64,000 nt of DNA from Escherichia coli (lineage in GTDB: Bacteria > Pseudomonadota > Gammaproteobacteria > Enterobacterales > Enterobacteriaceae). Position 1 is the first letter of the stretch. The number at the start of each line of letters is the position of its first letter. The notes beneath the pieces were generated by a model. It made no database searches. It had not been told where the DNA came from and was given only the letters and a program-made list of their open reading frames with translations. The stretch lies in NCBI RefSeq assembly GCF_046105845.1, contig NZ_CP151004.1; one strand, given 5' to 3'. A program made the position numbers and the translations under genes. Shown piece by piece: positions 22,854 to 29,015 of this stretch.

Positions 22854-24371
22854 ATGTCTGAACAACACGCACAGGGCGCTGACGCGGTAGTCGATCTTAA
22901 CAATGAACTGAAAACGCGTCGTGAGAAGCTGGCGAACCTGCGCGAGCAGGGGATTGCCTTCCCGAACGATTTCCGTCGCGATCATACCTCTGACCAATTG
23001 CACGCAGAATTCGACGGTAAAGAGAACGAAGAACTGGAAGCGCTGAACATCGAAGTTGCCGTTGCTGGCCGCATGATGACCCGTCGTATTATGGGTAAAG
23101 CGTCTTTCGTTACCCTGCAGGACGTGGGGGGCCGCATTCAGCTGTACGTTGCCCGTGACGATCTGCCGGAAGGCATTTACAACGAGCAGTTCAAAAAATG
23201 GGACCTCGGCGACATCCTCGGCGCGAAAGGTAAACTGTTCAAAACCAAAACTGGCGAACTGTCTATCCACTGCACCGAGCTGCGTCTGCTGACCAAAGCA
23301 CTGCGTCCGCTGCCGGACAAATTCCACGGCTTGCAGGATCAGGAAGCGCGCTATCGTCAGCGTTATTTGGATCTCATCTCTAACGATGAATCCCGCAACA
23401 CCTTTAAAGTGCGCTCGCAGATCCTCTCTGGTATTCGCCAGTTCATGGTGAACCGCGGCTTTATGGAAGTTGAAACGCCGATGATGCAGGTGATCCCAGG
23501 CGGTGCCGCTGCGCGTCCGTTTATCACCCACCATAATGCGCTGGATCTCGACATGTACCTGCGTATCGCGCCGGAACTGTACCTCAAGCGTCTGGTGGTC
23601 GGTGGCTTCGAGCGTGTATTCGAAATCAACCGTAACTTCCGTAACGAAGGTATCTCCGTACGTCATAACCCAGAGTTCACCATGATGGAACTCTATATGG
23701 CTTACGCGGATTACAAAGATCTGATCGAGCTGACCGAATCGCTGTTCCGTACTCTGGCACAGGATATTCTCGGTAAGACGGAAGTGACCTACGGCGACGT
23801 GACGCTGGACTTCGGTAAACCGTTCGAAAAACTGACCATGCGTGAAGCGATCAAGAAATATCGCCCGGAAACCGACATGGCAGATCTGGACAACTTCGAC
23901 TCTGCGAAAGCGATTGCTGAATCTATCGGTATCCACGTTGAGAAGAGCTGGGGTCTGGGCCGTATCGTTACCGAGATCTTCGAAGAAGTGGCAGAAGCAC
24001 ATCTGATTCAGCCGACCTTCATTACTGAATATCCGGCAGAAGTTTCTCCGCTGGCGCGTCGTAACGACGTTAACCCGGAAATCACAGACCGCTTTGAGTT
24101 CTTCATTGGTGGTCGTGAAATCGGTAACGGCTTTAGCGAGCTGAATGACGCGGAAGATCAGGCGCAGCGCTTCCTGGATCAGGTTGCCGCGAAAGACGCA
24201 GGCGACGACGAAGCGATGTTCTACGACGAAGATTATGTCACCGCACTGGAACATGGCTTACCGCCGACAGCAGGTCTGGGAATTGGTATCGACCGTATGG
24301 TAATGCTGTTCACCAACAGCCATACCATCCGCGACGTTATTCTGTTCCCGGCGATGCGTCCGGTGAAATAA
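22854..24371 (+). CDS. lysS: Lysine--tRNA ligase (constitutive)
   Basis: 505-aa class II aa[38 protein letters not shown]...; start 7 nt after the prfB stop. Confidence 0.94.
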
Positions 24372-24389: not shown

Positions 24390-24416
24390 AACCCCGGCAA
24401 ATGTCGGGGTTTTTTA
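24390..24416 (+). terminator. Rho-independent terminator of prfB-lysS (overlaps the idi stop codon; probably bidirectional)
   Basis: aaccccggcaaatgtcggggtttttt: 7-bp GC-rich stem followed by T6. Confidence 0.8.
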
Positions 24417-24962
24417 ATTGTGCTGCGCGAAAGCAGACAACAATTTTCTTGCTTCACTATTGGCTGCCTGCATCACCATCCACGGACTGAACGCCCACGG
24501 TGTGGCATCAATACCGTGTAATACATCTGCTAAATCACACCATTGATAATCCATCACTTCATCATCGTTGATCTGTAATGCACTGGTCGTGCGTGCGGCA
24601 AATACCGGACACACTTCATTTTCCACAATGCCATTCGGATCGGTGGCGCGATAGCGAAAGTCAGGATAGATAGATTCAGGAGGCGTAATTTCCACGCCAA
24701 GCTCATAACGGCAACGGCGGATCACCGCGTCTTCGTTGCTTTCGCCCAGTTGTGGGTGCCCACAAACCGAGTTAGTCCACACGCCCGGCCACGCTTTTTT
24801 GCTAAGGGCGCGGCGAGTAACTAATAATTGCCCTTTGGCATTAAACAGCCAACTGGAGAACGCGAGATGTAAGAGAGTGTCTGCCGTGTGTGCGGCATAC
24901 TTTTCCAGCGTACCCGTGGGAACTCCCTGTGCATTCAATAAAATGACGTGTTCCGTTTGCAT
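24414..24962 (-). CDS. idi: Isopentenyl-diphosphate delta-isomerase (Nudix type 1)
   Basis: 182-aa [44 protein letters not shown]... Confidence 0.92.
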
Positions 24963-25084
24963 AATTTCTCACATGTAATTCTGATCACTCATCATTATAG
25001 ATAATTGAAGAGTGAAATGATTAACCAAGTGAGCGTTTATCGACAACCGCCCGTTTTGAGCGGATGCCGACAGGTAAAAACCAT

Positions 25085-25210
25085 TTAAAAAAGTAGCATC
25101 ATATATTTGAAGCGACTTTCAATGGCCATTGCAACACAGTCAGAAATGACAGGAATAGAGAGAGTAAAAAGCAACAACAGACTGAATATAGCGCGCATTA
25201 AAAGATTCAT
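25085..25210 (-). CDS. Candidate 41-aa small hydrophobic protein translationally coupled to uacT (MNLLMRAIFSLLLLFTLSIPVISDCVAMAIESRFKYMMLLF)
   Basis: Not in the ORF track (under 60 aa). ATG 2 nt after the uacT stop, with GGAG 6 nt upstream inside the uacT 3' end; hydrophobic core typical of a small membrane protein. Possibly the known small protein yqfG, but I cannot verify that. Confidence 0.4.
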   Translation of the reverse strand: MNLLMRAIFSLLLLFTLSIPVISDCVAMAIESRFKYMMLLF

Positions 25211-25211
25211 A

Positions 25212-26660
25212 TTATTCTCCATGCTCATTTTTCTTCAGCTTGCGCATCAGAAGCCACATACGTACTGTCCTGACTTTTAAATCTTTATCAGAGACGGATT
25301 CCTTCACCAGATCAGCATGATGCTGATAGCCATTAAAGAAGACGTTCAGCACAACGGCGCTAAGGGTTGCGAGCATAATGCCGCTATGCAGCAACGGTTG
25401 CAGTACGGCCGGTAACTTAGAAAAGAAATCGTGAGAGAGCGTCGGAGTCATGCCAACGCCGAGACTGATCGCCACAATATAGAGGTTGTAACGGTTAGTG
25501 GTGTAGTTACAGCGCGACAGAATTCGAATCCCTGTCGCCAGTACCATGCCGAACATCACCAGCCCAGCACCGCCCAGCACAAATTGCGGAATGGAGGCGA
25601 CCAGCACCGCCATTTTTGGCACCATGCCAAACAGGATTAATATAATTCCCGAAGAAATACACACCCAGCGGCTATGAACGCGCGTCACGCTAACCAGGCC
25701 AACGTTTTGTGAAAATGACGTGTGGGGGAAGCTGTTAAACGTTCCGCCTATCATTGTCCCTATGCCATCGACACGCAGCCCGCGAATAATATCGTGTGAA
25801 GAGAGTTTACGACCGACTATTTCACCCAGTGCCAGGAACATCCCCATCGACTCGATAAACACGATGATTAACACGGCAGTCATGGTCAGAATGGAAACGG
25901 GATCGAAAATCGGCATACCAAATGACATCGGCGTGACAATCGCAAACCATGAAGCATCATGTAGCCCGGATAAATTGACTTCATTCATCATCCACGAAAG
26001 TAAAAAGCCAAATACAATCCCCAGTAATACGGCGACGTTGGACATAAATCCTTTCGCATAGCGAGTAATGAGCAAGATAAAAATTAAGACGGCAAAGGAG
26101 ATCCCCAAATAAACGGGATTACCATATTGCGGATTCCCTTTACCTCCGGCGGCCCAGTCAATACCCACCTGAATGATGCTAAGTCCGATAGAAGTAATAA
26201 CCACACCGGTAACCAGTGGCGGGAATAAAGGCATCAAGCGACCGATAAGTGGCGCTAATAATGTGGTGATAAAACCCGCGGCGATAGTGGCACCAAATAT
26301 CCCCAGCAGGCCGATATCCGGGTTCATCCCAATGGCTATCATTGGTGTTACAGCGGCGAAGGTCACCGACATAATCACCGGCAGGCGGATCCCCATAAAG
26401 CGGCCGATACCGATACATTGCAATAATGTGACGATCCCGCAGCAAAAGAGATCCGAGCTAATGAGCATCGCAATAGCTTCTTTTGAGAGGCCCAGTCGGT
26501 CACCAATCATAAGTGGAACAGCGACTGCACCTGCGTACATGACAAGGACGTGTTGCAGACCGAGTATGATCAGCTTTCCTGGTGATAATATGCGGTCAAC
26601 CTCATCAGTTGGGCGGTCTTGCCCTGAAGATGAGGAAAGTTGGGAATCTATGGCGCTCAT
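25212..26660 (-). CDS. uacT: Uric acid:H+ symporter (NAT/NCS2 family)
   Basis: Start set at MSAIDSQLSSSSGQDRPTDEVDRILSPGK... to give 482 aa; 12-14 TM NCS2 transporter. Confidence 0.88.
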   Translation of the reverse strand: MSAIDSQLSSSSGQDRPTDEVDRILSPGKLIILGLQHVLVMYAGAVAVPLMIGDRLGLSKEAIAMLISSDLFCCGIVTLLQCIGIGRFMGIRLPVIMSVTFAAVTPMIAIGMNPDIGLLGIFGATIAAGFITTLLAPLIGRLMPLFPPLVTGVVITSIGLSIIQVGIDWAAGGKGNPQYGNPVYLGISFAVLIFILLITRYAKGFMSNVAVLLGIVFGFLLSWMMNEVNLSGLHDASWFAIVTPMSFGMPIFDPVSILTMTAVLIIVFIESMGMFLALGEIVGRKLSSHDIIRGLRVDGIGTMIGGTFNSFPHTSFSQNVGLVSVTRVHSRWVCISSGIILILFGMVPKMAVLVASIPQFVLGGAGLVMFGMVLATGIRILSRCNYTTNRYNLYIVAISLGVGMTPTLSHDFFSKLPAVLQPLLHSGIMLATLSAVVLNVFFNGYQHHADLVKESVSDKDLKVRTVRMWLLMRKLKKNEHGE

Positions 26661-27095
26661 CAGTGTTTCTCCTTTCGCCCGCCAGAGTAAAAAGCAACCG
26701 TTTACGTTAATGAAACTGTCTAAACACATGCTCGTGGAGTGCCAGTTTTTGCGAGGAAGGGGAGTTAGAGACAGGAATTGCGGAGGCAATCACATAATCG
26801 TGGTTAAACCACGAAAATGAGAAGAGAACCTGACAATGGAATTATCTGTAATTTTCTCATATTGATATTTCATTAATCATTCTGGCATGTCGCACTCTCG
26901 CTTTTAATCGTTTTTATCTGGATAGCGCTCTTTTGGTCGGCAATGTTGAAATAATGAAAGCGGCACAGATTGAGGGGCAATAATTTGAACTCAGTCGCAA
27001 AATTATAATTAAAACGGTCATGCTACCTAATATATGCCCGTTTATTGCATCGCGAAATTTGAGAAGACATAACTCATTAAATGAAAGGGATGCAA

Positions 27096-29015
27096 ATGAA
27101 TAAGTTTATCGCTGCTGAAGCTGCGGAATGTATAGGCTGTCATGCTTGTGAAATTGCCTGTGCGGTGGCACATAATCAAGAAAACTGGCCGCTGAGTCAC
27201 AGTGACTTTCGACCGCGTATCCACGTTGTAGGGAAAGGCCAGGCTGCGAATCCGGTGGCCTGCCATCACTGCAACAATGCTCCTTGCGTTACGGTTTGTC
27301 CGGTTAATGCTCTGACTTTCCAGCCCGATAGCGTACAACTGGACGAGCAAAAATGTATTGGTTGTAAAAGATGCGCAATCGCTTGCCCCTTTGGCGTCGT
27401 TGAGATGGTCGATACGATTGCGCAGAAATGCGACCTTTGTAACCAGCGCAGTTCCGGCACGCAAGCCTGTATTGAAGTCTGCCCAACACAGGCGTTACGG
27501 CTGATGGACGATAAAGTGTTGCAGCAGATAAAGGTGGCCCGCCAGCGCAAAACGGCAGCAGGAAAAGCGTCATCAGACGCTCAGCCATCTCGCAGTGCAG
27601 CGTTGCTCCCCGTTAACTCGCGTAAAGGCGCAGATAAAATTTCAGCGAGTGAACGGAAAACCCACTTTGGCGAAATCTATTGCGGGTTGGATCCACAACA
27701 AGCGACTTATGAGAGTGACCGCTGTGTTTATTGTGCCGAAAAAGCTAACTGCAACTGGCATTGCCCGCTGCATAACGCTATTCCGGATTACATCCGTCTG
27801 GTGCAGGAAGGAAAGATTATTGAAGCGGCAGAACTTTGCCACCAGACCAGTTCCTTACCAGAAATTTGCGGCAGAGTTTGCCCACAGGACCGTCTTTGTG
27901 AAGGCGCATGTACTTTGAAAGATCACTCTGGCGCAGTCACTATCGGTAATCTGGAACGCTACATCACCGATACCGCGCTGGCGATGGGCTGGCGTCCCGA
28001 TGTCAGCAAAGTTGTTCCCCGTAGCGAAAAAGTGGCGGTGATTGGCGCTGGGCCAGCAGGGTTAGGGTGTGCTGATATTCTGGCGCGCGCAGGAGTTCAG
28101 GTTGATGTCTTTGATCGCCATCCAGAAATTGGCGGTATGCTGACTTTTGGCATTCCTCCTTTCAAACTCGATAAAACGGTATTAAGCCAGCGGCGAGAGA
28201 TATTCACCGCAATGGGAATCGACTTTCATCTCAACTGTGAAATTGGCCGCGATATTACCTTTAGCGATTTAACTTCTGAATATGATGCAGTTTTCATCGG
28301 CGTGGGGACTTACGGGATGATGCGAGCAGATCTGCCGCATGAAGATGCGCCCGGTGTCATTCAGGCTCTACCGTTCCTGACTGCCCATACCCGCCAGCTC
28401 ATGGGATTGCCGGAGTCTGAAGAGTATCCGCTGACGGACGTGGAAGGTAAGCGAGTCGTGGTATTGGGCGGTGGCGATACGACAATGGATTGTTTGCGGA
28501 CTTCCATCCGCCTCAATGCCGCCAGCGTGACCTGCGCGTATCGTCGTGATGAAGTCAGTATGCCGGGCTCGCGCAAAGAGGTGGTTAATGCGCGCGAGGA
28601 AGGTGTCGAGTTTCAGTTCAATGTTCAACCGCAATATATCGCTTGTGACGAAGATGGGCGTTTAACTGCGGTGGGCCTGATTCGTACCGCCATGGGTGAG
28701 CCGGGGCCGGATGGTCGCCGTCGTCCTCGTCCGGTAGCGGGTTCAGAGTTTGAATTGCCCGCCGATGTTCTCATTATGGCCTTTGGTTTCCAGGCGCATG
28801 CCATGCCGTGGTTGCAGGGCAGCGGAATTAAACTCGATAAATGGGGCCTGATTCAAACCGGCGACGTTGGGTATTTACCTACCCAGACGCATCTGAAAAA
28901 AGTCTTTGCTGGTGGTGATGCAGTTCATGGCGCGGATCTGGTTGTCACTGCAATGGCCGCAGGAAGGCAGGCGGCGCGCGATATGTTAACTCTGTTTGAT
29001 ACGAAGGCATCGTGA
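27096..29015 (+). CDS. ygfT: Fused Fe-S / FAD-NAD(P)-binding oxidoreductase (GltD-like beta subunit with N-terminal ferredoxin domain)
   Basis: [26 protein letters not shown]... with multiple CxxCxxCxxxCP motifs followed by the GAGPAG dinucleotide-binding motif; 639 aa from ATG 27096. Confidence 0.88.

What the first reader, a model, noticed from the sequence alone, without database searches (positions are those of the whole stretch)
25085..25214. Unlisted 41-aa hydrophobic ORF translationally coupled to the urate transporter gene
On the minus strand the uacT stop (TAA) is followed 1 nt later by ATG, with GGAG positioned 6 nt upstream inside the uacT 3' end. The ORF encodes a hydrophobic 41-aa peptide (MNLLMRAIFSLLLLFTLSIPVISDCVAMAIESRFKYMMLLF). 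It may be a small membrane protein that acts with the transporter, possibly the known small protein yqfG.
Basis: seen in the sequence. Interest (0 to 1): 0.45.

Follow-up and report, generated by a model that had tools for sequence, protein, structure and literature searches.

The report
Known small membrane protein gene yqfG
The 41-codon reading frame right after the E. coli urate transporter gene is the already catalogued small membrane protein gene yqfG, so the find itself is ordinary, but its relatives in other gut bacteria sit directly behind the same kind of transporter gene wherever I could check, which suggests the two work together.

Summary
On the minus strand, uacT ends TAA (25212-25214). 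One base later an ATG (25208-25210) opens a 41-codon hydrophobic ORF (25085-25210), with GGAG 6 nt upstream.

It is not new. RefSeq annotates it as yqfG ("protein YqfG", WP_001050745.1), and the region is present in 5347 of 5426 complete E. coli genomes. Published work shows tagged YqfG is an integral membrane protein cleaved by the intramembrane protease RseP. Its function is unknown.

What I added:
- YqfG belongs to a 38-41 aa family also found in Citrobacter, Kluyvera, the Klebsiella oxytoca complex and Apirhabdus/Erwinia.
- In all 13 lineages where it could be assessed, the gene lies directly after a UacT-type (NCS2) permease gene. The gap is -1 to +4 nt in most lineages, while the downstream neighbours differ.
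- It is under purifying selection (dN/dS 0.03-0.35).
- Every partner permease carries the C-terminal motif RT[VM]RM[WFL]LL[LM]RK. This holds even for permeases only about 44% identical to UacT.

This supports, but does not prove, a translationally coupled accessory peptide of the urate permease. AlphaFold on a fused construct was inconclusive.

Verdict: already known gene; modest interest.

The parts
25085..25210 (-). yqfG coding sequence (41 codons plus TAA). It encodes a small single-helix membrane protein.
   Evidence: Translation. RefSeq annotation 'protein YqfG' WP_001050745.1 at the 100%-identical locus L001. Family alignment. AF2 predicts a single helix over residues 3-40 with mean pLDDT 86.7.
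25208..25220 (-). Coupling junction: GGAG (25217-25220), 6 nt, ATG (25208-25210). The uacT stop TAA (25212-25214) and one spacer base lie inside the junction.
   Evidence: Sequence. The same stop-N-ATG layout, with a purine-rich Shine-Dalgarno-like run 5-8 nt upstream, occurs in E. albertii (TGA), Citrobacter sp. R56 (TAA), C. amalonaticus (TAG), L084 and L091. L088 and L090 have an overlapping TAATG.
25212..26660 (-). uacT (ygfU), a urate/H+ symporter of the NCS2 family. It is the upstream gene of the pair.
   Evidence: RefSeq annotation at L001. Relatives carry Pfam Xan_ur_permease.
25239..25274 (-). Codons for the UacT C-terminal tail motif VRTVRMWLLMRK. The motif co-occurs with YqfG-family genes.
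   Evidence: The motif is in all 16 YqfG-positive loci and in only 3 of 76 YqfG-negative permease loci. It is also in L093, L095 and L096. Synonymous sites vary freely while the residues are fixed.
25038..25072 (-). Stable RNA hairpin starting 13 nt after the yqfG stop. It is the likely 3' end or stabiliser of the uacT-yqfG transcript. It has no U-tract.
   Evidence: dG -23.5 kcal/mol, z -4.55. Equivalent hairpins of different sequence (dG -22 to -35) follow yqfG in L081, E. albertii, both Citrobacter loci, L084 and L091. The consensus scan found no canonical terminator here and there was no Rfam hit.

Best explanation
The ORF is yqfG, a known 41-aa inner-membrane protein of E. coli. This identity is shown.

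My best mechanistic reading follows.
1. yqfG is the distal gene of a two-gene uacT-yqfG transcript that ends at the hairpin at 25038-25072.
2. Ribosomes finishing uacT at TAA re-initiate, or are recruited by the GGAG embedded in the last uacT codons, at the ATG one base later. YqfG would therefore be made at the membrane, alongside nascent UacT and in a fixed ratio to it. This is inferred from conserved geometry.
3. YqfG inserts N-in/C-out as one long helix. The family-conserved residues are Arg6, Pro20, a small-xxx-small pair at positions 25 and 29, Ser32-Arg33-Phe34 and an aromatic residue at 36.
4. It acts as an accessory or regulatory peptide of UacT-type urate permeases, possibly together with their conserved cytoplasmic tail RT[VM]RM[WFL]LL[LM]RK. 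This is inferred from gene adjacency and co-occurrence.
5. Free YqfG is removed by the S2P protease RseP. Cleavage has been shown in the literature for tagged constructs; its physiological meaning is unknown.

Identity is about 0.99 certain. The stated confidence refers to the 'works with the permease' mechanism.
For: Identity: RefSeq annotation and a 100% DNA match; the K-12 entry.

Membrane protein and RseP substrate: PMC4597795 and PMC10470546 (class I substrate, cleaved in vivo by chromosomal RseP and in vitro).

Family beyond Escherichia: tblastn, profile searches, sequences, organism names.

Adjacency: the small gene directly follows a Xan_ur_permease gene in 13 of 13 assessable lineages. 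The gaps are -1, -1, six cases of 1, then 3, 4, 51, 66 and 88 nt. Downstream neighbours differ: idi, rhaS/rhaR, an FdhF-like Mo-enzyme, a convergent phosphatase, a sigma-54 activator and a lipoprotein.

Selection on the peptide: dN/dS 0.03-0.35; invariant P20, R33 and F34.

Tail motif: it is shared by partner permeases that are only 43-45% identical overall.

Operon end: hairpins follow yqfG in each lineage where it is the last gene.
Against: - No interaction or phenotype data exist, and the published papers call the function unknown.
- Plasmid-borne ygfU without a co-cloned yqfG raised urate degradation in one of two E. coli Nissle constructs and greatly lowered it in the other (PMC9067508). 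YqfG is therefore not shown to be a stoichiometric requirement, although the host is E. coli and presumably carries a chromosomal copy (not checked).
- Three close UacT orthologues (C. freundii, Serratia oryzae, Pluralibacter gergoviae) keep the tail motif but have no YqfG gene.
- In an AF2 model of UacT-(G4S)5-YqfG, the YqfG part has lower confidence (pLDDT 46-69) than YqfG alone (55-96), and the tail helix is at 54-57. That gives no structural support.
- In the Klebsiella-type clusters (L086, L088, L090) and in the UacT-type loci L093 and L096, the small gene is also tightly followed by an FdhF-like gene, so the partner could be something else in the urate pathway.
- Adjacency across related Enterobacterales is partly explained by shared descent.
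Confidence: 0.5

Rival explanations
1. YqfG is a real small membrane protein, but its job is unrelated to UacT (for example a general membrane or stress role). It simply rides at the end of the uacT transcript, and the adjacency in other genera reflects inherited synteny.
For: Function is unknown in the literature. All carriers are Enterobacterales. UacT orthologues exist that lack it. The AF2 fusion model was uninformative.
Against: The small gene stays attached to the permease while the downstream gene changes at least six times. It accompanies two permease clades only about 44% identical to each other, and these share a specific tail motif. The tight stop/start spacing persists while the stop codon changes.
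Confidence: 0.27
2. The N-terminal two thirds act as a signal-peptide-like segment. A short C-terminal peptide (about 16 aa, carrying the SRF motif) is released to the periplasmic side, and RseP then clears the remnant, as it does for signal peptides.
For: The authors chose YqfG because it resembles signal peptides, which are RseP substrates. Position 25 is always small (C/G/S/A).
Against: The -3/-1 positions do not fit signal peptidase I across the family: -1 would be D/E, or else -3 would be Q/R (alignment). No leader-peptidase product is reported. AF2 gives one continuous helix.
Confidence: 0.07
3. Only the act of translating the ORF matters, as a cis effect on uacT mRNA stability, on Rho termination or on the downstream gene. 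The peptide itself has no function.
For: The position is tightly coupled at the 3' end of the transcript, just before a hairpin.
Against: Amino-acid sequence is conserved while synonymous sites change (dN/dS 0.03-0.35). Residues are invariant across 19 divergent members. Length variants are in-frame.
Confidence: 0.05
4. It is a type I toxin-like hydrophobic peptide controlled by antisense transcription from the yqfH side.
For: It is small and hydrophobic, it is an RseP substrate like HokB and HokE, and an annotated antisense ORF overlaps its 3' end.
Against: The scan found no promoter-like site on its strand immediately upstream; it is coupled to a permease gene instead. Tagged YqfG was expressed as a routine control substrate, with no growth inhibition noted in the passages read. 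The antisense ORF is not conserved.
Confidence: 0.03
5. It is a chance ORF with no product.
For: It is short, and no Pfam or NCBIfam model matches it.
Against: Conservation, purifying selection and curated annotation. The gene was reported as an expressed small protein by Hemm et al. 2008, cited; I could not read that paper.
Confidence: 0.01

Closest known systems
E. coli YqfG (b4684; small membrane protein from Hemm et al. 2008; RseP substrate, Akiyama et al. 2015 and the 2023 mBio RseP small-membrane-protein study, PMC10470546)
   Same: It is the same gene. The CDS is annotated yqfG in RefSeq at a locus 100% identical to the window. It is 41 aa, lies between uacT and idi, and differs from the K-12 allele by one residue (L3 versus F3).
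   Different: Nothing of substance differs. The b-number and the 2008 discovery are from my own knowledge; the 2008 paper was not available.
Small single-helix partners of transporters and membrane complexes (AcrZ-AcrB, KdpF-KdpABC, MgtS-MgtA/PitA, CydX-CydAB, SgrT-PtsG)
   Same: It is a peptide of about 40 aa with one hydrophobic helix. It is encoded beside, and apparently co-translated with, a polytopic transporter, and the adjacency is conserved across genera. The general behaviour of this class is from established knowledge.
   Different: No binding or functional effect on UacT has been shown. No small partner of an NCS2-family nucleobase permease is known to me. YqfG shows no detectable sequence relationship to those peptides (no Pfam or NCBIfam hit; no PDB hit).
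Translationally coupled gene pairs using termination-reinitiation (stop and start within a few nt, such as overlapping TAATG or ATGA junctions)
   Same: The stop and start are 1 nt apart with a Shine-Dalgarno-like run inside the upstream gene. Relatives use the overlapping TAATG form.
   Different: Dependence of YqfG synthesis on uacT translation is untested. Three lineages have 51-88 nt gaps containing a hairpin and their own Shine-Dalgarno sequence, so coupling is common but not obligatory.
RseP (S2P) substrates: signal peptides and small membrane proteins such as HokB and YkgR
   Same: Published work shows cleavage of tagged YqfG in vivo and in vitro. The predicted topology is type II.
   Different: Cleavage of native, untagged YqfG and its physiological consequence are unknown. 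Nothing links it to UacT so far.

Membership tests
YqfG of E. coli (curated small protein) | Sequence identity to the curated YqfG protein. | tested here: met
   The window ORF equals the CDS annotated 'protein YqfG' WP_001050745.1 in L001 (100% DNA identity). It differs by one residue from the K-12 sequence.
YqfG of E. coli (curated small protein) | Genomic position: same strand as uacT, immediately 3' of it, and upstream of idi. | tested here: met
   The order ygfT / uacT / yqfG / idi / lysS is the same in the window and in RefSeq genomes.
Translationally coupled gene pair | Stop of the upstream gene and start of the downstream gene within a few nucleotides, with a ribosome-binding site inside the upstream gene. 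| tested here: met
   TAA-T-ATG with GGAG 6 nt upstream. This is conserved in 10 of 13 lineages, with gaps of -1 to +4 nt.
Translationally coupled gene pair | Downstream translation depends on translation of the upstream gene. | not testable with these tools
   Needs reporter fusions with premature stops in uacT.
Small accessory subunits of membrane transporters (AcrZ/KdpF/MgtS type) | Single transmembrane helix, under about 50 aa. | tested here: met
   AF2 predicts a helix over residues 3-40 with pLDDT 86.7. The hydrophobic fraction is 0.68. Membrane integration of the tagged protein is published.
Small accessory subunits of membrane transporters (AcrZ/KdpF/MgtS type) | Conserved co-encoding with the partner. 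| tested here: met
   13 of 13 lineages are adjacent to an NCS2 permease gene, with varied downstream genes.
Small accessory subunits of membrane transporters (AcrZ/KdpF/MgtS type) | Physical binding to the partner and an effect on it. | tested here: inconclusive
   The only available proxy was an AF2 model of a fused UacT-linker-YqfG. It gave low pLDDT for YqfG (46-69) and the tool returns no contact information. Real tests need experiments or a multimer model with PAE.
RseP substrates | RseP-dependent intramembrane cleavage. | not tested
   Reported in PMC4597795 and PMC10470546 for tagged YqfG. It cannot be tested here.
Bacterial lipoproteins | Lipobox L-[AS]-[GA]-C with an invariant Cys. 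| tested here: not met
Cys25 is replaced by G, S or A in every non-Escherichia member.
Sec signal peptides cut by signal peptidase I | Small neutral residues at -3 and -1 after the hydrophobic core, conserved across the family. | tested here: not met
   Across the alignment, either -1 is D/E, or else -3 is Q/R.
Type I toxin-antitoxin peptides | Own promoter, an antisense RNA regulator, and toxicity. | tested here: inconclusive
   There is no promoter-like site on its strand just upstream. The antisense ORF yqfH is not conserved. Toxicity is not testable here.

The most novel reading that the evidence does not exclude
YqfG defines an unnamed family of 38-41 aa peptides that are dedicated partners of a subset of NCS2 urate/purine permeases in Enterobacterales. 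The peptide would be made by coupled translation with the permease. It would pack against the permease through its small-xxx-small and SRF face, and/or work with the permease's conserved cytoplasmic tail RT[VM]RM[WFL]LL[LM]RK. Its turnover by RseP would tune permease activity or stability. As far as I know, this would be the first small-protein subunit described for the NCS2/NAT transporter family.
Probability: 0.35. Interest if true: 0.55.

Novelty: already known. Interest (0 to 1): 0.28.

Why it matters
As a find, it confirms that reading raw sequence can recover a genuine 41-aa gene that ORF-length cut-offs miss. It adds nothing to the E. coli gene catalogue.

The by-product is of some use. 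YqfG has had a protease (RseP) but no function for over a decade. The comparative pattern found here gives a specific, cheap hypothesis to test: YqfG modulates the urate permease. That pattern has three parts: the gene always sits behind a UacT-type permease gene, it is usually translationally coupled to it, and it always comes with a conserved permease tail.

UacT/YgfU is being over-expressed in engineered probiotic E. coli to remove uric acid (PMC9067508; other papers). An accessory peptide that affects its level or activity would be practically relevant there. It would also bear on anaerobic purine degradation by gut bacteria (PMC12507026).

Tried and rejected
- **Hemm et al. 2008 and related papers.** Hemm 2008, Hemm 2010, Fontaine 2011, the EcoSal small-proteome review, Papakostas & Frillingos 2012 and Iwadate & Kato 2019 are not in the library. 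Evidence for native expression therefore rests on citations in other papers and on my own memory.
- **Ribo-seq supplements.** Weaver 2019, the Mg-limitation study and the MS review have no held supplements. Only the acid-stress study lists yqfG, and the listed values were not significant.
- **'b4684' text search.** It returned irrelevant papers only.
- **Pfam, NCBIfam, PDB and Rfam.** No family, structure or RNA model matches.
- **Single-sequence protein search.** It suggested YqfG was restricted to Escherichia. The synteny-guided tblastn and the profile searches overturned this.
- **Lipoprotein idea (Cys25).** Rejected because the Cys is not conserved.
- **Programmed frameshift fusing UacT to YqfG.** Rejected. 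The yqfG frame relative to the permease frame is +1, -1 or 0 in different lineages (gaps of 1, -1, 4 and 66 nt). The profile search found no long fused proteins.
- **Nascent-chain arrest role for the tail motif.** Unlikely, because its distance to the stop codon varies from 8 to 13 residues.
- **AF2 of the fused UacT-(G4S)5-YqfG.** No gain in confidence for YqfG or the tail, and the tool gives no contacts. Inconclusive.
- **Canonical intrinsic terminator after yqfG.** The consensus scan found none. There is only a hairpin without a U-tract.
Full report
**1. What is in the sequence**

The window is E. coli chromosome. It carries lysS (22854-24371, +), idi (24414-24962, -), uacT/ygfU (25212-26660, -) and ygfT (27081-29015, +).

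Read on the minus strand, uacT ends ...CAT GGA GAA TAA. One base later an ATG opens a frame of 41 codons ending at TAA (25085-25210), which translates to MNLLMRAIFSLLLLFTLSIPVISDCVAMAIESRFKYMMLLF. GGAG sits at 25217-25220, 6 nt before the ATG. The stated end (25214) merely includes the uacT stop codon.

The mechanical ORF list gives a 47-aa version because two in-frame ATGs lie inside the end of uacT. Comparison with relatives supports the 41-aa start.

**2. It is a known gene**

A megablast of the 501 bases around the ORF against 5,426 complete E. coli genomes found the region in 5,384 of them, 5,347 at 80% coverage or more. The features under the match are 'uacT | yqfG: protein YqfG | protein YqfH | idi'.

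The K-12 copy (NC_000913.3:3032817-3032942) differs by one residue (F3 instead of L3). A Ribo-seq study lists it among 'previously known sORFs' (PMC10746267 supplement).

The literature available to me says the following.
- YqfG is one of the small membrane proteins attributed to Hemm et al. 2008. It is predicted to be type II (N-in/C-out) and its function is unknown.
- N-terminally tagged YqfG is integrally membrane-associated. It is cleaved, presumably within its transmembrane segment, by the S2P protease RseP, and helix-destabilising substitutions at residues 8-15 modulate the cleavage (PMC4597795).
- It is a 'class I' RseP substrate. It is cleaved by plasmid-borne and chromosomal RseP in vivo and by purified RseP in vitro (PMC10470546).

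I could not read the 2008 discovery paper or several other key papers. No Pfam or NCBIfam model, PDB entry or Rfam family covers the peptide or its locus.

**3. Is it a real, selected coding sequence?**

Yes.
- E. coli against E. albertii shows 8 synonymous and 1 non-synonymous differences (dN/dS 0.03).
- E. coli against Citrobacter-type homologues gives dN/dS 0.19-0.34, and Citrobacter lineages compared with each other give 0.10-0.22.
- uacT itself is at 0.02-0.06. The peptide is thus constrained, but less tightly than the permease.
- Length variants inside E. coli are in-frame: +2 aa, +4 aa and -3 aa.
- A minority of strains carry stop-loss or N-terminally disrupted versions.

**4. The family is wider than annotated**

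A single-sequence search returned almost only Escherichia and Shigella.

I then fetched species-representative loci encoding UacT relatives and searched them with tblastn. This revealed a 41-aa homologue (54% identity) in Citrobacter sp. R56 and a 38-aa one (31% identity) in Kluyvera genomosp. 1. Both lie just after the permease gene.

Profile searches with these sequences found further members (sequences). Where sources name an organism, they come from these taxa:
- Citrobacter amalonaticus, C. enshiensis and Citrobacter sp. Marseille-Q6884
- the Klebsiella oxytoca complex (K. michiganensis, K. oxytoca, K. pasteurii; more than 1000 contigs, all labelled 'hypothetical protein')
- Apirhabdus apintestini and Erwinia sp. 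HR93

In a 19-member alignment, P20, R33 and F34 are invariant. R6, L14 and S32 are nearly so. Position 25 is always small (C/G/S/A) and position 29 is always A, G or S, which makes a small-xxx-small pair. Position 36 is aromatic.

The E. coli Cys25 is not conserved, which rules out a lipoprotein. The -3/-1 pattern does not fit signal peptidase I.

AlphaFold2 with this alignment predicts one continuous helix over residues 3-40, with mean pLDDT 86.7.

**5. Conserved linkage to the permease**

In every lineage where the upstream DNA is available (13 of 13), the small gene directly follows a Xan_ur_permease gene of 481-490 aa on the same strand.

| Gap between permease stop and small-gene start | Loci |
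|---|---|
| -1 nt (overlapping TAATG) | L088, L090 |
| 1 nt | E. coli, E. albertii, Citrobacter sp. R56, C. amalonaticus, L084, L091 |
| 3 nt | L095 |
| 4 nt | L086 |
| 51 nt | L096 |
| 66 nt | L005 (Kluyvera) |
| 88 nt | L093 |

The short contig L094 ends within the permease gene, with a 2-nt gap before the small gene.

The stop codon itself varies between TAA, TGA and TAG while the spacing is kept. The Shine-Dalgarno-like run also varies (GGAG, GGTG, AGGA, GAGGA, GGAGGGG). The three long gaps each contain a hairpin and a separate Shine-Dalgarno sequence.

The gene downstream of the pair is different in different lineages:
- idi (Escherichia, Citrobacter)
- rhaS/rhaR (L084)
- an FdhF-like molybdoenzyme gene 17-42 nt away (L086, L088, L090, L093, L096)
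- a convergent phosphatase gene (L091)
- a convergent sigma-54 activator gene (L095)
- a lipoprotein-like gene (Kluyvera)

Where yqfG is the last gene of the unit, a strong hairpin begins 13-17 nt after its stop (dG -22 to -35 kcal/mol, z -4.5 to -6.9; sequences differ between lineages). This is consistent with the end of a uacT-yqfG transcript.

An HMM of the family, run over six-frame translations of all fetched loci, found no copy after the permease genes of C. freundii, Serratia oryzae, Pluralibacter, Morganella, Hafnia, Edwardsiella, Aeromonas or the many beta-proteobacteria.

**6. A matching feature in the permease**

The partner permeases fall into two groups. One is 78% or more identical to UacT. 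The other is only 43-45% identical (L086, L088, L090 and L091, including the Klebsiella and Apirhabdus types).

Even so, all partner permeases share a near-identical C-terminal segment, [VP]RT[VM]RM[WFL]LL[LM]RK. In E. coli this is VRTVRMWLLMRK, codons at 25239-25274.

The motif is in 16 of 16 YqfG-positive loci, and also in L093, L095 and L096. It is in only 3 of 76 YqfG-negative permease loci, namely the three closest UacT orthologues without the small gene. Codons for the motif differ freely at synonymous sites, so the constraint is on the protein.

This co-occurrence is not phylogenetically corrected. It is still striking, because the motif is far better conserved than the rest of the two permease groups.

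**7. Mechanism, and what is shown versus inferred**

Shown:
- the identity of the gene
- the junction geometry
- conservation and purifying selection
- adjacency to the permease gene
- the tail motif

Shown by others:
- membrane integration of tagged YqfG
- RseP cleavage of tagged YqfG

Inferred:
- YqfG is made by termination-reinitiation, or by Shine-Dalgarno-assisted coupling, from the uacT message.
- It acts on or with UacT-type permeases.

I tried to obtain structural support with an AF2 model of UacT-(G4S)5-YqfG, using paired rows for eight lineages. The YqfG segment scored lower (pLDDT 46-69) than when modelled alone, the tail helix scored 54-57, and the tool reports no contacts. This is uninformative.

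Evidence against an obligatory subunit is that plasmid-borne ygfU without a co-cloned yqfG raised urate degradation in one of two E. coli Nissle constructs and lowered it in the other. The host is E. coli and so presumably carries a chromosomal copy (not checked).

I put about 0.5 on the partner model and about 0.27 on an unrelated membrane role with inherited synteny. The processed-peptide, cis-only, toxin and chance explanations get small values.

**8. Novelty and score**

To my knowledge, the extension of the family outside Escherichia, the invariant linkage to NCS2 permease genes and the co-occurring permease tail are not described in the papers I could search. They give a testable function for an orphan small protein. 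That is a modest, hypothesis-level gain, so interest is 0.28.

Noticed in passing
window 25017-25088 (+): yqfH is a 23-aa ORF (MINQVSVYRQPPVLSGCRQVKTI) reported by VanOrsdel et al. 2018 and annotated in RefSeq. It lies antisense to the hairpin that follows yqfG and overlaps the yqfG stop by 4 nt. It is frameshifted in another E. coli lineage (L081) and altered with its stop lost in E. albertii. Some RefSeq genomes label it only 'hypothetical protein'. It looks like a by-product of the hairpin rather than a conserved gene.
   Followed up: partly
window 25239-25274 (-): The UacT C-terminal tail motif VRTVRMWLLMRK is conserved at the protein level, with synonymous sites free to vary. It is shared by permeases only about 44% identical overall, and it is found almost only where a YqfG-family gene follows. 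I did not see it mentioned in the papers I could read, and the key UacT paper (Papakostas & Frillingos 2012) was not available.
   Followed up: yes
L088 4138-6285, L086 4144-6300, L090 4145-, L093 2112-4259, L096 3151-: In the Klebsiella-type clusters (L086, L088, L090) and in the UacT-type loci L093 and L096, the small gene lies between the permease gene and an FdhF-like molybdopterin enzyme gene 17-42 nt downstream. Gene callers often split that enzyme gene into 139 aa plus 559 aa, which is consistent with an in-frame TGA selenocysteine codon. Neighbours are YgfT-like, SsnA-like and XdhD-like genes of anaerobic urate degradation.
   Followed up: no
L004 4444-4500 (Serratia oryzae): The uacT orthologue keeps the tail motif, but only 55 nt separate it from the FdhF-like gene. 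A short overlapping frame beginning MIRFWFAAALL... might be a remnant of a lost YqfG-family gene. It was not detected by the family HMM.
   Followed up: no
L005 4450-4515, L093 1865-1952, L096 2950-3000: In the lineages where the small gene is not tightly coupled, the permease-to-small-gene spacer contains a GC-rich hairpin followed by a separate Shine-Dalgarno sequence. This may be a processing or attenuation site inside the operon.
   Followed up: no
window 25211-25228 (-) and E. coli variants P0001, P0005, P0014: Two in-frame ATGs upstream of the yqfG start (giving 47- and 45-aa versions) lie inside uacT. Some E. coli strains have lost the yqfG stop codon, giving 57-66 aa products. Others have disrupted N-termini, for example a 34-aa form seen on 33 contigs.
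   Followed up: partly
L007 around 2456 (Morganella psychrotolerans): The UacT-like reading frame ends prematurely at ...VLNVFF* compared with its relatives. This suggests a frameshift or truncation of the permease C-terminus in this genome.
   Followed up: no
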